A DNA stretch of 64,000 bases, from positions 308,043 through 372,042 of the forward strand of contig JBNAUL010000001.1 in NCBI GenBank assembly GCA_049700835.1, written 5' to 3'. The DNA is from Candidatus Woesearchaeota archaeon. Its GTDB lineage: Archaea; Nanobdellota; Nanobdellia; Woesearchaeales; WAPY01. Made by a program: the position numbers. The first letter of the stretch is position 1. Each line of letters starts with the position of its first letter. Below are positions 1 through 6,000 of the stretch, piece by piece.

Positions 1-3000
1 GTAATTTTGGTATGGTTGAGGTTTATTTGGATGGTTTGAGGTCTAGGGTTGATAGTGTTTGGAGGGGTTTGGGTAGGGTTGCTCCTGTTTTTGAGCGTCG
101 TTTGGTTTCTCGTGATGAAGTTTTGCGTAGTGTTGAGGAGGCTAGGAGGGAGAGGCAGAAAGCCATAAAAGAAGAAAAATCTTCTGAAAAAGAAAAACAA
201 AAAGATAAAGAAAAGAAAAAGGAAAAGATAGTAAAACCTCTTGTTTTTGACAACGGCGCAATGGTTGGTTCAATAGAAGAATTATTAGACGCTTTACCTC
301 CGATGAGTGTTTCTGTGTTCAGTAAACATGTAAATCAGTCAAAGAACGACATTAAGGATTGGATTGAAAAGGAGTTTAAGGATGAGCAGTTAATAAAAGC
401 AGTTAGTGTTTTAACTAAAAAGGAGATGATAGACAACATAAAAAAATATTTAGAAGAAAAGAACAAAGATAAGAAAGAGGAAAAAGAAGAAAAGAAATAG
501 ATGTGCACATAAAAGGAACTCAGTGAAATCTAAATTTACTAATTTAAATTATTAAATTAACAAATCTAAATTTTATGTTTTTGTTCTCTTCAATCTTTTT
601 TTGGTTGTTACATTCATTTAAAATATTTAAAATCAAATTTTTAGAAACAGAACAATTGTGAATTTTAGCAATTGTGTAAGTAATACTTTTACATACTTAG
701 TATGTATTAGTAAGTAAAGTAATTTTAAGCGTTACAATTATTATAACTTTTAAAAAAGAGATATAAAACAGAAACATTTATATATCAATATACATATTTA
801 GTATGTTTTAGTATGATATTTCATTATGGGGTGATGCTCTATAAGAAAACAAGCGCGCGAGCAGGAAAAAAATGCTGCATATGAAAATAAGAATTCTAAA
901 AAAGATTCTTTGTACAGAATTAAAAAAAACCAAAGCATTGATTTCAATTTTGCAGATTTATTCAACGATGTAAATACAAAAAAAATCAATAATAAAAAGC
1001 GCAGTAAAAGAATAACAATTACAATAGATAAAAATCTGCTTAATTTTTTGGATCACCTTATTTCTAAGAGAATTTTTGCCAATAGGAGTCATGCTTTTGA
1101 ATTTTTAATAAGAAAGAGAACAGAATTTGAGAATGAAAGAGAGAATTACTATTACCTTAAATGAGGAACTGCTGGACTGGATAGATAACAAAATTAAGAA
1201 GAGAATTTTTGCCAATAGGAGTCATGCTTTTGAATTTTTAATAGCAAGATTGATGGAAAACAACAAGCTTCAGAGCGAAGATGAAAACAAGAGATAAAAC
1301 CAAAGATTTAGGAAAAGGGAAAAACTTGAAAAATCTTAAAAAGCATTTTGACGAAGGCGGATTTAGGGCAACATTTTATGCCTTGCTGGCAGCAATACTT
1401 GCAATCCTTGCAATAATTGTTCTCATACATATTAAGAATTACATTGGATATATGGCACTTCAAACAAGAGCAGGTTCAATCTCTGAATTGAAGATTGACC
1501 TACGATTGCCAGCATCGATATGGAGCGGATTTTACGGTTTAGGGCTAATGGTTCCTGGATATACAGAACAACAACTTGATGTTGCAATTGGCAATACAAT
1601 TAAGAACAAGCACTTGGTTTTTGACTGCTTGAAATACGATGAAGAAAATCCTCCTGAAATTTATGCTTCAACCTCTCCTGTCATTCTCTGGGAAACACTA
1701 AGCCCAGCAACAACAGACATGGTTGACAATTACTTGGAAGTAAGCCCTGATTACATAATGTCAGGCACAAATACCTTCACAACGACTATGACAATAAGAT
1801 TAGGAGATAGAAACATAACAAACATTCCAGCAACACATACTAAAAAATTTGGAGCTCCTGACAGCATGCTCTTTGACATTGGAGTTTTGAGAGACGCAAA
1901 CAACAACTTAGTTTTTGTAACTCATGTTACAGACTATGTCAGGGGCTTTAACAACGAACTTGTAAACTATCAAATGCTACTTCCTGTAAAATCAGATACG
2001 ACACCTGTTTATTATTTCTTTAGAGACCCTTATGAGGAGTGTCCTGCAGGCCCAGCACCAGCAGTAAATACTACTTTGTATGGTTATGTTTTTGACAACG
2101 AAACATTGGAGGCATTAGCGAATGTTACAATAAGGATACAAGGAATAGAAGCCCTGACAGACGAGAATGGATTTTACAACATAACAGCATTGGACGGAAC
2201 TTATAACTTGTTTGGTTCAAAAGAAGGTTATCATAACTATATAACAACAATAAATTTGACACCTGACAACTCAAGCACTCCTGAGAGAGAAGACATAAAA
2301 GAATTCAACTTTACAATGCGAAAAATACATGGTCTTGAGTTTGGTAACGGGACGCTTAAAGGTATGGTAACAGATTCAGGTTCTAAACAGCCGTTAATCA
2401 ATGTTTCAATAATCATAGCAGGAATTTTAGTCTATACTAATACTTCAGGAGAATACGAAATAAACCTTACAGAAGGCAACCACACATTAATCGCTTTAAA
2501 ACAAGGATACAAAGATTTTTACAATTTTAGCGTTCCTGTAATAAGAAACAATGTTACAAATTACAATTTCTCAATGACCCTGTTGCCGCCACCGCAAGAA
2601 GCGCAAATCCAAAAGACAGGAACAACAGAATTCACTTCCAATGCCCCTCAAGTCCCTCCGCAGATACAGGAACCTATTGAGATAATAGACCACATAGTTT
2701 CAATGAGAATGATAGATGAGCAACTTAGAAAGGACTCTTTCATTGACAGATTGATGACTATAAAAAGTTACAAGAGAACAACAGCGCAAATAACATTGTC
2801 TGTTTTAGGAGATGTCGCTGATATGGTTCTGCTTGATAAATCAAAATTGATAATAGAACCACAAGGAAGCGAGAACTTAAGCATAAGATTGTTGGCAAAC
2901 AAAGAGCCAGGAATCTATGAAGGGGTTTTGGTCATGCAAGGTGATTTTGAGGATAGAATACCTATAAGAATTATTGTCTATGAAAAAGAGAGGTTGCCAA

Positions 3001-6000
3001 TTGAATCAATGCTTATAAAAGTAACTCCACTCAAAGATGTCATAAGCCCTGGAACTGATTTAAAGTTCAGGGTTTCATTAACTAATTTGTTGAAAGAACA
3101 GTACTACAATGTGACTTTGAAATACTATTTGATAAATGAAAAGACAAACGAATCAATATTCTTAGGAGATGATTATGAGATACTGCAGACCTCCTTATCA
3201 TTAATAAAGTCCTATAAAACAAATAGTACAATAGAAGAAGGTTTTTACAGAATTGAAGTTAAGACAGAATACTTAAACTTTGAATCCTATGCAAGTACAA
3301 TCATAAGAATAGCAAAACCATTCTACATGTATGCCCTGTTCGGCATTCTCCCTCTATGGCAATTGTTCCTGATAATTTTGGTGGGTTCTATATTGAGTTT
3401 TGCTTATGTTCGTTATCGTGTTTTTAGGAGGTCTAGGCTTAGGTATGGTGTTTCTGTTGATGTTAGGAGTTTGCGTCGTGTTTCTGATAAGTTGGGTTTT
3501 GTTGGTAAGGTTGCTGAGGTTGGTGTTCCTTTTTATTTTGATTTGAATTTGTTGTCTACTCATTGTATTGTTGCTGGTGCTACTGGTGGTGGTAAGAGTG
3601 TTGCTGCTCAGGTTTTTGTTGAGGAGTGTTTGAAGCGTGGTGTTGGTGTTTTGGTTTTTGATCCTACGGCTCAGTGGTCTGGTTTTTTGAGGGCTTGTTC
3701 TGATGTTAGGATGTTGGGTTTGTATTCTGGTTTTGGTTTGCGTAGGGGTGATGCTCGTGGTTTTCCTGGTAATGTTCGTTTGGTTAGGGATGCTAGGGAG
3801 GTTGTTGATGTTAGGCGTTTTTTGAAGGCTGGTGAGATTAATGTTTTTGTTTTGAGTAGGTTGGAGCCTGAGGATATTGATTTTTTTGTTGCTAATACTG
3901 TTCGTGAGGTTTTTAGGGCTGGTTTTGATGAGTTTGGTGGTTTGCGTTTTTTGTTGGTTTATGATGAGGTTCATCGTTTGTTGCCTAGGTTTGGTGGTTC
4001 TGGTGAGGGTTTTGTTCAGATTGAGCGTGCTTGTCGTGAGTTTCGTAAGTGGGGTGTTGGTGTTGTTTTGATTAGTCAGGTTTTGTCTGATTTTGTTGGT
4101 GAGATTAAGGCTAATATTAATACTGAGGTTCAGGTTAGGACTCGTGATGAGGGTGATTTGCAGCGTGTTCGTGAGAAGTATGGTGAGGAGTTTTTGAGGG
4201 GTTTGGTTAGGGCTAGTGTTGGTACTGGTTTGTTTGAGAATCCTGTTTATAATGGTGGTAGGCCTTTTTTTGTTAGTTTTAGGCCTTTGTTGCATAGTGT
4301 TTCTAGGTTGTCTGATGGGGAGTTGGATGCTTATGATCGTTTTAATGGTTTGGTTGATCAGTTGGGTTTTGAGTTGGATTCTTTGGAGGGTTTGGGTGTT
4401 GATGTTTTTGATTTGCGTTTGGAGTTGAGGTTGGCTTTGGATAAGTTGAAGGTTGGTAATTTTGGTATGGTTGAGGTTTATTTGGATGGTTTGAGGTCTA
4501 GGGTTGATAGTGTTTGGAGGGGTTTGGGTAGGGTTGCTCCTGTTTTTGAGCGTCGTTTGGTTTCTCGTGATGAAGTTTTGCGTAGTGTTGAGGAGGCTAG
4601 GAGGGAGAGGCAGAAAGCCATAAAAGAAGAAAAGAAGGCAAAGGGAGAAGAGGAAGCATCAGAAGAAGAATTTAAAGAAGAAACAACCGAAGAAACAGAA
4701 GAAAATAACAACAAAAAGGAAAATAAAGAAGAACAGAAAAATCAAGATGTCAATAAAGAAAATAAAAACCTTGAAAACCAGAATGAAAAAAATGAAATTA
4801 AACCTGATAAAATTGAACTTTTGAAAAAGGAAACAGAGCCGCAATTCTATTTTGTTTTGGAAAATGGAAAACAACTCAAGAGCATTTACGATTTAATTGA
4901 GGAATTAGAAATTATGAGTGATGATGTTTTTTATCATCATGTTAATGATTTTAAGAATGATTTTGAGAATTGGGTTAGGTTTGTTTTTTTGAACAATGAA
5001 TTGGCTGATAAGATTTCAAAAACCAAAACAAAAAGAGACATGTTAAAAGCGATGGGTGAGTATATTGGAAGAAGCAGTTGATATTCCGGAATCAAAGTAT
5101 TTTGTTTTAAAAGACGGAAAAAGATTAGCTTCAATTCAAGAGTTAGTTGAAGCTTTAAGGGTTATAAGTGATGATGTTTTTTATCATCATGTTAATGATT
5201 TTAAGAATGATTTTGAGAATTGGGTTAGGTTTGTTTTTTTGAACAATGAATTGGCTGATAAGATTGGCAAGTTTAAAACAAGAAATGATATCCTGCTGGA
5301 ACTGCAGAATTATGTTTTAAAAAATAAACAGAACAAGCAAGAAATAAATCAGATTAAAAAGAGCGATTTGCCAAAAGAAGATAAAAATCCAAAAATCCTA
5401 GAGTTGGAAACAAGATTAGAAAGCATTAGAAAGAGAATATCAGAACTTAGAAAGCAGGGTTTTGATACAAAAAATGCAGAACTTATGATTTTGATGGTTC
5501 CCCCAAGGATAAGGTTTGCAGAGATAACATGTAATGAAATTGATTTTTTCAAGGCAGAGCAGAGCATAAAGAATATTGAACTAGAACTGAAAGAAATTGA
5601 GAGTTCAAAACCAAACTAGATTCAGGAGGAAATTGCTGAAATAAAATCAAACTCAGAATTTGAAAATGAAAAAAAAGAGGTGTGAAAATGTTTAAGTTTT
5701 TTAAGAAAAAGAGTAAAGAAGAAGAAAATATCTCCGAACAAGAAAAACTTGATCAAGCAGAAGAACAGCAGATTAATGTTGAAACTCAAAAACAGGCATC
5801 ACTCAACATTGAAGCAGAAGTTTTAAGGCTTAAATCAACAGTAGAAGCTCTTGGAGAAGTTAGAAAAGCAACAGAAGAAAGATTGGGAAATCTAAGCCAG
5901 CAAGTTGGAGAATTGAGAGGAATGATTGTAGACAGGGACAAGCAGATATCGCAGATAGAAGTAAAAGCAACAAAAGCAGCTGATTTAGTCCAAGCAGTTC

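What a model noticed while it worked through the whole genome (the two positions that open the first line are those of the whole stretch)
1..4571. Duplicated gene tracts with no A or C at any third codon position (GT3 tracts)
Sharply bounded tracts inside surface/secretion genes use only codons that end in G or T: 393 codons with 0 exceptions in the HerA/FtsK-like ATPase domain of g00307 (C1 306980-308158) and its 99.8% identical copy in g00310 (C1 311435-312613); 213 codons with 1 exception in g00314 (C1 327260-327898) and its copy in g00322 (C1 341156-341794); about 557 codons with 3 exceptions in g00992 (C3 114004-115674; a second copy begins at the end of C4, 23581-23646); 55 codons twice inside g00208 (C1 204801-204965, 206856-207020). 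Genome-wide, 49% of third positions are G or T. Each amino acid has one codon (T where synonymous, else G; only Arg AGG/CGT and Ser AGT/TCT are split), the bias is on the sens [...]
Evidence so far: Codon counts by 40-codon window and per amino acid; exhaustive six-frame scan for G/T-only runs; self-BLAST shows each tract is a >99% repeat whose left end coincides with the start of the pattern, while at the right end the pattern fades 60-100 nt before identity ends. Amino-acid make-up is shifted (Lys 10, Ile 7 against Arg 49, Val 57 of 396 codons, call 27); against the consensus of 17 ordinary orthologues: Lys>Arg 16 against Arg>Lys 1, Ile>Val 10 against 0, Tyr>Phe 4. The same modules are GT3 in two other species genomes: same genus G286 (402 codons, 0 exceptions, 96% aa identity, all 11 third-position differences G<->T) and another family G085 (paired ATPase tracts 99.8% alike, plus Cys The finding spans contig positions 306980 to 312613; this window holds only 308043 to 312613 of it. 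[...]
(Added by a program. Inside this text positions count along the whole contig: contig position 308,043 is position 1 of the stretch shown here. "Call 12" and the like, gene names such as g00115 and contig names such as C1 are that model's own, and its searches are not shown. The text may have been shortened before it was handed on; [...] marks where a part breaks off. The agent that wrote the report below was given it as the finding of a first reader that could run no searches.)

Follow-up and report, generated by a model that had tools for sequence, protein, structure and literature searches.

The report
Repeated genes with G/T-only third positions
In a small hot-spring archaeon, gene segments present in two identical copies have lost nearly every A and C from one DNA strand wherever the protein allows it, most likely because the cell's mismatch-cutting enzyme biases the copying between the two copies.

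Summary
Window 3393-4571 has 393 codons with no A or C at position 3. An identical copy lies 4.4 kb upstream. Control letter pairs give runs of 54 codons at most.

The bias is not tied to the sense strand. A complete relative genome (G089) and G000 itself hold mirror tracts whose sense strand has only A/C at position 3. The feature is therefore a split of the DNA strands: keto bases (G/T) on one, amino bases (A/C) on the other. It runs the same length as nearly identical repeats.

Fourfold sites rank T>G>C>A on the keto strand and A>C>G>T on the other. This order is what the published mismatch preference of EndoMS/NucS predicts if that enzyme filters heteroduplexes between repeat copies: G/T, G/G and T/T are cut well, T/C moderately, A/G, A/A, A/C and C/C hardly.

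- G000 encodes a full NucS and no MutS.
- NucS was found in 6 of 6 genomes with the strongest tracts, against 176 of 401 in the order.
- Strand polarity mostly follows the replication direction inferred from cdc6.

My reading is keto-biased gene conversion (confidence about 0.45). My searches found no such report.

The parts
1..116 (+). Last 116 nt of GT3 tract copy A1 (C1 306980-308158), in the upstream paralogue g00307. Identity with copy A2 continues to window 178.
1281..5081 (+). Gene g00310 (1266 aa). It has an extracellular CarboxypepD_reg-like domain, a membrane helix, a HerA/FtsK-type P-loop ATPase domain, a Lys/Glu-rich linker and a C-terminal domain.
   Evidence: ORF. PF13715 E 3.7e-17; PF01935 DUF87 E 7.6e-12, 46.2 bits against a cut-off of 23.2.
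3393..4571 (+). GT3 tract copy A2: 393 codons with 0 ending in A or C. The whole strand is 78% G+T. Each amino acid uses the codon with the fewest A/C, and then T before G.
3388..4633 (+). Extent of near-identity with the upstream copy (1246 bp, 99.8%). The left end coincides with the start of the pattern. The flanks on both sides are homologous but only about 30-35% identical at protein level.
4572..4633 (+). Right-hand end of the repeat: GAA (an exception), then 13 G/T-ending codons to 4613, then 20 nt of ordinary A-rich sequence that is still identical between the copies.
3354..4295 (-). Antisense ORF of 313 aa. I take it as a by-product: if sense position 3 is never A, the codon-aligned antisense frame cannot hold a stop codon.
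   Evidence: plus reasoning from the sequence. Not tested as a gene.
4591..4843 (-). Lys/Glu-rich linker whose minus strand is keto-rich at period 3 (85 codons at 88% or more). Its polarity is opposite to the tract beside it. The same misfit follows the G089 tract.
   Evidence: C1 312633-312885 and G089 760562-760772.
4912..5015 (+). Short G/T-rich repeat (104 bp, 99% identical, 68% G+T), first copy, with a 27-codon G/T-only run.
5162..5265 (+). Second copy of the 104-bp G/T-rich repeat, in the next ORF (5056..5619), with a 25-codon run.
19218..19964 (+). Tract B copy 1, in the 2886-aa surface protein. 213 codons have 1 exception (19218-19856). The 747-bp repeat is 99.9% identical to copy 2.
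33114..33860 (+). Tract B copy 2, in the 668-aa protein (ORF 32913..34919).

Best explanation
The tracts are gene-conversion tracts. These segments are kept (nearly) identical between two copies in one genome, and repeated copying between the copies has been biased. One DNA strand is driven towards the keto bases, in the order T>G>C>A. Its partner is driven towards the amino bases, A>C>G>T. Selection on the protein holds the first and second codon positions in place, so the result is a codon-periodic pattern.

Proposed mechanism (inferred, not shown):
1. A single-stranded stretch of one copy, most simply a gap on the lagging-strand template, pairs with the complementary strand of the other copy.
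2. Wherever the copies differ, a mismatch forms.
3. The only mismatch system this genome appears to hold is EndoMS/NucS. It recognises mismatches made of G and T, cuts both strands at them, and ignores A/C, A/A and C/C.
4. Heteroduplexes that would replace a resident G or T are therefore destroyed. Those that would replace a resident A or C survive and are fixed at the next replication.
5. The moderate cutting of T/C and the weak cutting of A/G then rank T over G and C over A.
6. Which strand becomes keto-rich depends on the direction of replication, not on transcription. A gene can therefore end up with G/T-only or A/C-only third positions.

Shown: the pattern, its link to repeats, the base ranking on both strands, concerted evolution, and the presence of NucS. 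Inferred: that NucS acts on these heteroduplexes, the pairing geometry, and the origin positions.
For: 1. The pattern has the same length as the identity.
- The pattern and the identity start at the same codon in tracts A, B and D of G000.
- The same holds in the independent G398 pair, which is 54% aa identical to G000 and has identity 0.985.
- It also holds in a G089 mirror pair.

2. Evolution is concerted.
- G000 and G001 flanks differ at 37 of 60 and 6 of 14 fourfold sites. The tract differs at 0 of 164.
- G001's two copies are identical over the 99 nt available and share 3 codon changes against G000.

3. The bias tracks homogenisation across genomes. Of 11 genomes with two ATPase copies, the 3 near-identical pairs (0.985-0.999) have GT3 0.89-1.00. 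The 8 diverged pairs (0.61-0.88) have 0.41-0.63.

4. It does not depend on the coding strand. Mirror A/C tracts sit in long ORFs.

5. The base ranking fits the enzyme.
- Fourfold sites, keto strand (T/G/C/A): G398 .64/.30/.06/0; G089 .74/.21/.05/0, .81/.13/.05/.01 and .81/.13/.03/.02; G000 .99/.01/0/0.
- Mirror tracts, sense strand (A/C/G/T).70/.21/.07/.02 and .69/.24/.06/0.
- Published specificity of T. kodakarensis EndoMS: G/T, G/G and T/T best, T/C moderate, A/G, A/A, A/C and C/C much less (PMC4838380, passages).
- The C. glutamicum enzyme cuts G/T, G/G and T/T but not C/A (PMC6159521, passages).
- A toy chain with those passes gives T .75, G .23, C .01, A .01.

6. NucS is present.
- G000 has a 257-aa NucS with both domains. 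It matches PDB 2vld at E 1e-44 and 5gke at E 3e-43. No MutS_V was found.
- 7 of 9 genomes with ATPase GT3 of 0.72 or more, and 6 of 6 at 0.85 or more, have NucS over the cut-off. For GT3 of 0.63 or less it is 10 of 27. The order-wide figure is 176 of 401 (one-sided Fisher p 0.04). Four further low-GT3 genomes without NucS, are not in that test.
- Among genomes with a gene pair, 3 of 4 NucS+ are homogenised, against 0 of 7 without NucS or with a weak hit (p 0.02). Related genomes are not independent.

7. Whole-genome comparison. Two NucS+ genomes have keto/amino runs up to 411 and 192 codons, with 21 windows each. Two genomes without a NucS hit have runs of at most 23 and 27 codons, with 2 and 0 windows.

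8. Published role in conversion. Deleting nucS severely impairs gene conversion in Haloferax volcanii (PMC11276520, passages). Its loss raises homeologous recombination in M. smegmatis (PMC8228993, passages).

9. Polarity. With the origin placed next to cdc6, the keto-rich strand is the leading-strand sequence in 18 of 21 windows in G089 and 11 of 12 on G000 C1.
Against: - No experiment or read-level data shows NucS acting here. The link rests on a ranking of four bases and on modest correlations among related genomes.
- The two genomes without NucS that I scanned also have very few repeats (1 and 2 pairs of 200 bp or more). That contrast is confounded.
- G129 has GT3 0.72 and no NucS hit at 93% completeness. 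G343 (0.75) has only a weak hit.
- Ten NucS+ genomes have ordinary ATPase genes.
- Some repeats are only mildly biased, for example C2 429833/431112: 981 bp, 99.6% identical, GT3 0.65.
- Some strongly biased genes are single-copy in the assembly: G000 C1 26-27.6 kb, C2 318-320 kb, C1 413 kb; G089 499 kb.
- In G089 the GC skew and gene orientation put the origin near 80 kb rather than at cdc6. That would reverse the polarity rule there.
- 4 of 33 windows do not fit the polarity rule.
- In G398, Ile is ATC 21 against ATT 8, which runs against the predicted C-to-T drift.
- NucS cutting makes a double-strand break. The outcome I assume, loss of the intermediate, is not established.
Confidence: 0.45

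Rival explanations
1. Strand-specific DNA damage rather than biased conversion. The strand that is single-stranded during replication or recombination of the repeats loses C by deamination (to T), A by deamination (to G) and G by oxidation (to T) in a hot habitat. Selection on the protein leaves the codon-periodic residue.
For: - The direction (G/T gain on the presumed lagging-strand template) matches the classical leading-strand G/T excess (established knowledge, recalled).
- Two hot-spring metagenome runs hold most of the stretch (X1, share 0.90; X2, share 0.69). X2 was laid and gave 9 contigs at 99% or more.
Against: - Single-strandedness would not stop at the codon where paralogue homology ends.
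- Pure transitions predict T about .42 and G about .58 at fourfold sites from the G398 flank usage. Observed is T .64, G .30.
- Cytosine deaminates faster than adenine (recalled), so C should be the rarest base. A is the rarest.
- The rest of the same transcript and replicon is unaffected.
Confidence: 0.15
2. Recombinase preference. RadA, like RecA and Rad51, binds G/T-rich single strands best, three nucleotides per monomer. G/T-rich alleles would then pair more often and spread (a drive). Alternatively, selection keeps these modules rich in G/T because frequent recombination between surface-gene cassettes is useful.
For: - RecA prefers TGG/TG-rich repeats and binds three nucleotides per monomer (PMC3763553, passages).
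- A Rad51 'universal pairing sequences' paper appears in that paper's reference list, but I could not read it. The archaeal RadA preference is recalled only.
- The tract strand is 78% G+T.
- The tracts lie in surface or secretion gene clusters.
Against: - It gives no reason for C>A, or for the exact complement ranking in the mirror tracts.
- It explains poorly why both orientations relative to the gene occur.
- Saturation at 0 of 393 needs effective selection on tiny increments.
- In break repair the invading copy is usually the recipient of information.
Confidence: 0.15
3. A foreign cassette. The tracts were imported from a donor (a virus, plasmid or other organism) with extreme strand composition, then copied into paralogues. 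The pattern would be inherited, not produced in place.
For: - The G089 tract is 72% aa and 81% nt identical to G000's, against 52-60% aa for other families.
- Tract G+C differs from the genome.
Against: - No donor with such usage is known to me, and the searches found none.
- The same domain is biased independently in G398/G197, which are 54% aa identical and show no amino-acid shift.
- Grades from 0.72 to 1.00 exist.
- Unrelated protein modules, and mirror tracts, show the pattern in the same genomes.
- The pattern persists while the flanks saturate.
- Shared drift to the same few codons can itself raise identity.
Confidence: 0.05
4. Selection at the level of the messenger RNA or of translation on the sense strand. 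Examples are use of G34/C34 tRNAs only, escape from a ribosome-dependent RNase that reads the third A-site nucleotide, or an unstructured mRNA.
For: - The pattern is in codon phase.
- The genome has GNN, CNN and UNN tRNA sets, so G/T-ending codons would avoid the UNN tRNAs.
- Contigs from an RNA library cover 3795-4597 of a variant. That is not proof of transcription.
Against: - Mirror tracts use the opposite codons.
- NNC and NNU are read by the same tRNA, yet C is avoided.
- The amino-acid make-up shifts too.
- Only part of the transcript is recoded.
Confidence: 0.02

Closest known systems
GC-biased gene conversion (gBGC) in recombining or concertedly evolving genes
   Same: - A non-adaptive bias in resolving heteroduplex mismatches drives the composition of sequences that convert each other.
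- It is strongest at silent sites.
- It also pushes amino-acid usage.
- It is confined to the converting tract.
   Different: - The favoured classes are keto against amino bases, not G/C against A/T.
- The bias is strand-specific, so the two strands diverge in composition.
- Polarity seems to be set by replication.
- The proposed enzyme is a double-strand-cutting mismatch endonuclease.
Replication-associated strand asymmetry (G and T excess on the leading strand)
   Same: - The same two bases are enriched.
- Polarity appears to switch at the presumed origin.
   Different: - The genome-wide effect here is nil: keto share is 0.46-0.52 per 20 kb in G000.
- The tracts reach 100% at silent sites, have codon-sharp edges and coincide with repeats.
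EndoMS/NucS non-canonical mismatch repair
   Same: The enzyme's mismatch ranking (G/T, G/G, T/T, then T/C, then A/G, A/A, A/C, C/C) maps onto the observed base ranking. The enzyme is encoded in the genome.
   Different: Its described roles are correcting replication errors, limiting homeologous recombination and supporting gene conversion. The papers I read in part and my searches show no compositional footprint of this kind.
Diversity-generating retroelements
   Same: Paired repeats in surface-protein genes, with a directional, base-specific process.
   Different: - No reverse transcriptase is present.
- The copies are identical rather than differing at adenines.
- The tracts are about 10 times longer.
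- An ATPase domain is affected.
Repeat-induced point mutation (fungi)
   Same: Base-specific change confined to duplicated DNA, with edges at the repeat borders.
   Different: RIP hits both strands (C>T and G>A), makes the copies diverge and destroys genes. Here one strand is affected, the copies stay identical and the genes stay open.

Membership tests
HerA/FtsK-type P-loop ATPase (product of the gene that holds the tract) | Match to the DUF87/HerA central domain with the P-loop | tested here: met
   PF01935 E 7.6e-12, 46.2 bits against a cut-off of 23.2, at residues 741-839. The sequence GATGGGKS lies in the tract.
Biased gene conversion | The bias is confined to sequences that convert each other (concerted evolution shown) | tested here: met
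   Pattern and identity share their edges. Fourfold differences are 0 of 164 in the tract against 37 of 60 in the flank. G001's copies are identical and share changes against G000.
Biased gene conversion | The bias does not depend on the coding strand or on codon preference | tested here: met
   Mirror tracts exist. The G398 tract uses T 89 / C 5 where its flank uses C 104 / T 13.
Biased gene conversion | Unequal transmission of alleles from heteroduplex observed directly | not testable with these tools
   This needs marked repeats in a cultured strain, or raw reads of a population. Only contigs were on hand.
EndoMS/NucS-dependent process | A complete NucS is encoded and no MutS is present | tested here: met
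EndoMS/NucS-dependent process | The pattern is present only where NucS is present | tested here: inconclusive
   NucS is present in 6 of 6 genomes with the strongest tracts, 7 of 9 with GT3 of 0.72 or more, and 10 of 27 with 0.63 or less. The 2-against-2 whole-genome contrast is confounded by repeat content. G129 is an exception.
Replication strand asymmetry | Polarity switches at the origin and the terminus | tested here: inconclusive
   29 of 33 windows fit with the origin at cdc6. In G089, GC skew and gene orientation suggest another origin.
Diversity-generating retroelement | A reverse transcriptase gene, plus a template/variable repeat pair differing at adenines | tested here: not met
   PF00078 gave 0 matches in a genome 98.7% complete. 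The copies differ at 1 site only.
Repeat-induced point mutation | C>T on both strands and divergence of the copies | tested here: not met
   One strand only is affected, and the copies are 99.8-100% identical.

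The most novel reading that the evidence does not exclude
The keto-specific mismatch endonuclease EndoMS/NucS imposes a previously unrecognised evolutionary force: strand-specific keto-biased gene conversion. 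In any lineage that relies on NucS (many archaea, and Actinobacteria), this force would rewrite repeated genes down to one codon per amino acid. It would shift their protein composition, for example towards Val, Gly, Phe, Cys and Arg, or in the mirror case towards Thr, Asn, Gln and Lys. It would also record the direction of replication in the sequence.
Probability: 0.4. Interest if true: 0.9.

Novelty: new variant of a known kind. Interest (0 to 1): 0.85.

Why it matters
If the reading is right, four things follow.
- It would be a second kind of biased gene conversion besides the GC-biased one, with a defined enzyme behind it and a prediction for all four bases.
- It would show that a repair enzyme's substrate range can override codon preference. 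In G398, T is 89 against C 5 in the tract, where the flank has C 104 against T 13. It can also reshape proteins, for example to 8% Cys in one surface module.
- It would give a sequence-only marker of long-term concerted evolution, and perhaps of replication direction, in uncultured archaea.
- It warns annotators that such tracts break assemblies (three contig ends of G000 lie in them), create long false antisense ORFs and inflate apparent conservation.

Whatever the mechanism, the pattern is extreme: 0 of 393 codons, kept while neighbouring silent sites saturate. My searches found no report of it.

Tried and rejected
- Reverse transcriptase: none found. Deaminases: one ordinary CDA-type gene on another contig.
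- R-loops or damage to the non-template strand: rejected, because the mirror tracts have the opposite polarity to transcription and because T, not G, dominates.
- tRNA-based, toxin-RNase-based and mRNA-structure explanations: rejected on the mirror tracts and on the avoidance of C.
- Antisense gene at 3354-4295: taken as a by-product and not pursued.
- GATC enrichment in the G398/G197 tracts: 19 and 14 sites, not above a synonymous shuffle (16.2 and 14.0).
- The T-rich repeat at C2 301595/306827 is non-coding and belongs to a different kind.
- A search for shared origin-box repeats beside cdc6 in G000 and G089 found none.
- I first read the fast Arg CGT/AGG switching (5 of 48) as local hypermutation. 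I dropped this once the flanks proved saturated.
- The 'chimeric' G001 gene is not used as evidence for crossover. It may be a mis-join through the repeat.
- Laid contigs gave no polymorphism data, and parts without cover mean nothing.
- The reverse gyrase model matched only below its cut-off, so I claim no hyperthermophily.
- Row 'G089 293144-293545' took a wrong frame. Searches give the right one.
- PMC316816 could not be read.

Full report
**What is in the window**

The window is G000:C1:308043-372042, from a 1.07 Mb genome of 4 contigs with 32% G+C.
- The organism is an archaeon with a small genome. It has tRNAs with introns and GNN/CNN/UNN sets, Cdc6 and NucS.
- X1 and X2, both hot-spring metagenome runs, hold most of the stretch (shares 0.90 and 0.69). 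X2 was laid and gave 9 contigs at 99% or more.
- ORF 1281..5081 encodes a 1266-aa protein. It has an extracellular CarboxypepD_reg-like part, a membrane helix, a HerA/FtsK-type ATPase domain, a Lys/Glu linker and a C-terminal domain.
- Around it lie giant Ig/CARDB surface proteins.

- Codons 705-1097 (window 3393-4571) have 0 of 393 third positions that are A or C.
- A second copy lies at C1 306980-308158. Its last 116 nt are window 1-116. It differs at one base, and identity runs for 1241 nt.
- Genome-wide, G/T-only period-3 runs reach 411, 393, 393, 120, 120, 92 and 92 codons. The longest runs for the control letter pairs are 52 (A/G or C/T), 54 (A/T) and 29 (G/C).
- Each amino acid uses the codon with the fewest A/C, and then T before G: GGT 44 / GGG 1, GTT 55, TTG 46 / CTT 1, AGG 25 / CGT 23, TCT 14 / AGT 9.
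- First and second positions are shifted too. Their G+T share is 0.68, against 0.46-0.52 in ordinary orthologues. The pressure therefore acts on nucleotides, and the protein gives way where it can.

**Edges**

- The upstream parts of the two paralogues are homologous but only about 30% identical. At one codon (LSFAY...) they become 100% identical, and the pattern starts at that same codon.
- At the right end the pattern stops at 4613, and identity stops 20 nt later.
- Tracts B and D show the same sharp left edge. In tract B, identity also runs beyond the end of the pattern.
- So does the pair in G398, a genome of another family. Its ATPase domain is only 54% identical to G000's and shows no amino-acid shift. 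Identity and pattern start together there, and the pattern ends about 15 nt before identity does.

**Concerted evolution**

- Between G000 and the same-genus G001, the flanks are saturated at silent sites: 37 of 60 and 6 of 14 fourfold sites differ. The tract differs at 0 of 164 fourfold sites. It has 24 changed codons, including 5 of 48 Arg CGT/AGG switches.
- G001's two copies are identical over the 99 nt that the second contig holds. They share three codon changes against G000.
- A G001-like variant forms a separate contig spanning exactly 3394-4597 in two other metagenome runs. This is as expected for a repeat.

**Spread**

- A DNA search of 401 genomes of the order found the domain in 64.
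- In the 36 genomes whose loci I scored, GT3 of the domain is:
  - 1.00 in G000 and G001;
  - 0.96 in G089;
  - 0.89 in G398 and G197;
  - 0.85 in G383;
  - 0.72-0.76 in G226, G343 and G129;
  - 0.40-0.63 in the other 27.
- Among 11 genomes with two copies, the three near-identical pairs are the three biased ones. The eight diverged pairs are ordinary.

**The turn: mirror tracts**

I fetched the complete 909,956-bp genome G089.
- It has the same biased modules: the ATPase pair, the B-like pair and a Cys-rich module.
- It also has repeats in which the sense strand has only A/C at position 3:
  - a 63-nt tandem coiled-coil repeat (293144-293545; 0 G/T third positions over 339 nt);
  - a surface-domain module at 343762-344063, in a plus-strand gene, and 672009-672461, in a minus-strand gene (G/T 4-7%);
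  - 345891/346476 (14%).
- Their amino acids are those with A/C-rich codons: Thr, Asn, Gln, Lys, Pro and Ile.
- G000 has two ORFs at GT3 0.25 and 0.28, against a mean of 0.485 and sd of 0.047 over 740 ORFs.

The feature is therefore a split of keto and amino bases between the two DNA strands. It is not a property of the message. This removes the tRNA, RNase, mRNA-structure and non-template-strand explanations.

**Ranking of the four bases**

| Tract | Strand read | Fourfold sites |
|---|---|---|
| G398 | keto | T .64, G .30, C .06, A 0 |
| G089, three tracts | keto | T .74-.81, G .13-.21, C .03-.05, A 0-.02 |
| G000 | keto | T .95-1.00 |
| G089 mirror, two tracts | sense | A .69-.70, C .21-.24, G .06-.07, T 0-.02 |

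- The mirror values are the exact complement of the keto-strand values.
- This holds against the local codon preference. The G398 flank uses C 104 / T 13 at twofold pyrimidine sites. The tract uses T 89 / C 5.

**Link to EndoMS/NucS**

- G000 encodes a 257-aa NucS with both domains. It is close to the solved P. abyssi and T. kodakarensis enzymes. No MutS was found.
- Published work, read as passages:
  - The T. kodakarensis enzyme cuts G/T, G/G and T/T best, T/C moderately, and A/G, A/A, A/C and C/C much less (PMC4838380).
  - The C. glutamicum enzyme cuts G/T, G/G and T/T and not C/A (PMC6159521).
  - G or T fit its recognition site, and its loss raises homeologous recombination tenfold at 90% identity (PMC8228993).
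  - Deleting nucS severely impairs gene conversion in Haloferax (PMC11276520).
- Suppose a heteroduplex joins a resident single strand (base r) to the complementary strand of the other copy (allele d). Then:
  - changes G>A, T>C, G>C and T>A make G/T, G/G or T/T and are cut;
  - changes T>G and C>A make T/C and are cut moderately;
  - changes A>G, C>T, A>T, C>G, G>T and A>C pass.
- The stationary order is T>G>C>A on that strand and the complement on the other, as observed. A toy chain gives T .75, G .23, C .01, A .01. This step is inference.

**Tests of that link**

- NucS is over the cut-off in 7 of 9 genomes with GT3 of 0.72 or more, and in 6 of 6 at 0.85 or more. It is over the cut-off in 10 of 27 with GT3 of 0.63 or less, and was found in 176 of 401 overall (p 0.04).
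- Among genomes with a gene pair, 3 of 4 NucS+ are homogenised, against 0 of 7 others (p 0.02). Related genomes are not independent.
- G030 (complete) and G033 (631 kb), both without a NucS hit, have longest keto/amino runs of 23 and 27 codons. G000 and G089 have 411 and 192. But G030 and G033 hold only 1 and 2 repeat pairs.
- Exceptions: G129 and G343.

**Polarity**

- cdc6 lies at C1:112 kb in G000 and at 589 kb in G089. In each genome it sits behind a long AT-rich gap and before the same two genes.
- With origins placed there, the keto-rich strand is the leading-strand sequence, which is the lagging-strand template, in 18 of 21 windows (G089) and 11 of 12 windows (C1). This includes the informative cases where that strand is antisense.
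- Two of the four misfits are the Lys/Glu linker just after the ATPase tract.
- In G089, however, GC skew and gene orientation favour an origin near 80 kb. This point stays open.

**Left unexplained**

- Ile ATC 21 against ATT 8 in G398.
- Biased genes that are single-copy in the assemblies.
- A 981-bp repeat, 99.6% identical, that is only mildly biased at GT3 0.65. That is still in the top 5 of 740 ORFs, and on the minus strand.
- What follows a NucS cut in a heteroduplex.

**Literature**

Searches found no report of such tracts or of keto-biased conversion. This cannot prove that none exists.

Noticed in passing
L088 (G398:C4), tract copies at about 51972-52984 and 54548-55560; also G197 (L100): In this lineage nearly all third-position exceptions are Ile ATC (21 against 8 ATT). 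The tract holds 19 GATC sites per 1.1 kb, against 4.9 per kb in the locus. This is not above a synonymous shuffle (16.2).
   Followed up: partly
G000 contig ends: C3 113941-115722, C4 23581-23648, C2 1-545: Three contig ends lie inside keto-biased repeats. The repeats seem to have broken the assembly.
   Followed up: no
L002 and L011 (G001 C26 and C68): The G001 gene on C26 joins a g00307-like N-terminus to a g00310-like C-terminus across the tract. C68 holds the g00310-like N-terminus (88% aa), ending in the tract. This is either a real exchange or a mis-join through the repeat.
   Followed up: partly
window 3393-4571: The tract holds 14 runs of five or more T, and 5 runs of six or more, on the sense strand. 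From recall, such runs can act as archaeal terminators, so the bias may carry a cost for expression.
   Followed up: no
G000 C1 109300-111535; G089 586900-587700: A long AT-rich stretch without ORFs (80-90% A+T) lies upstream of cdc6 in both genomes, followed by the same two genes. It is a likely replication origin. No shared repeat boxes were found.
   Followed up: partly
G089, whole genome: The cumulative GC skew peaks at cdc6 (about 590 kb) instead of reaching its minimum there. T exceeds A on the plus strand over most of the genome.
   Followed up: no
G000 C3 114004-115674; G089 744078-745490: The Cys-rich surface modules (44 Cys in 557 codons in G000) are among the most biased tracts. Cys, Phe, Gly, Val and Trp are the amino acids whose codons can be made of G and T alone.
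   Followed up: partly
L039 (G108:C42): In this genome the ATPase domain is ordinary (GT3 0.49). The about 270 codons after it are about 90% G/T at position 3, with a sharp left edge.
   Followed up: no
G000 C2 301595-301861 and 306827-307095: A 269-bp repeat, 98.5% identical, T-rich and apparently non-coding, lies between genes. It is of a different kind from the coding tracts.
   Followed up: partly
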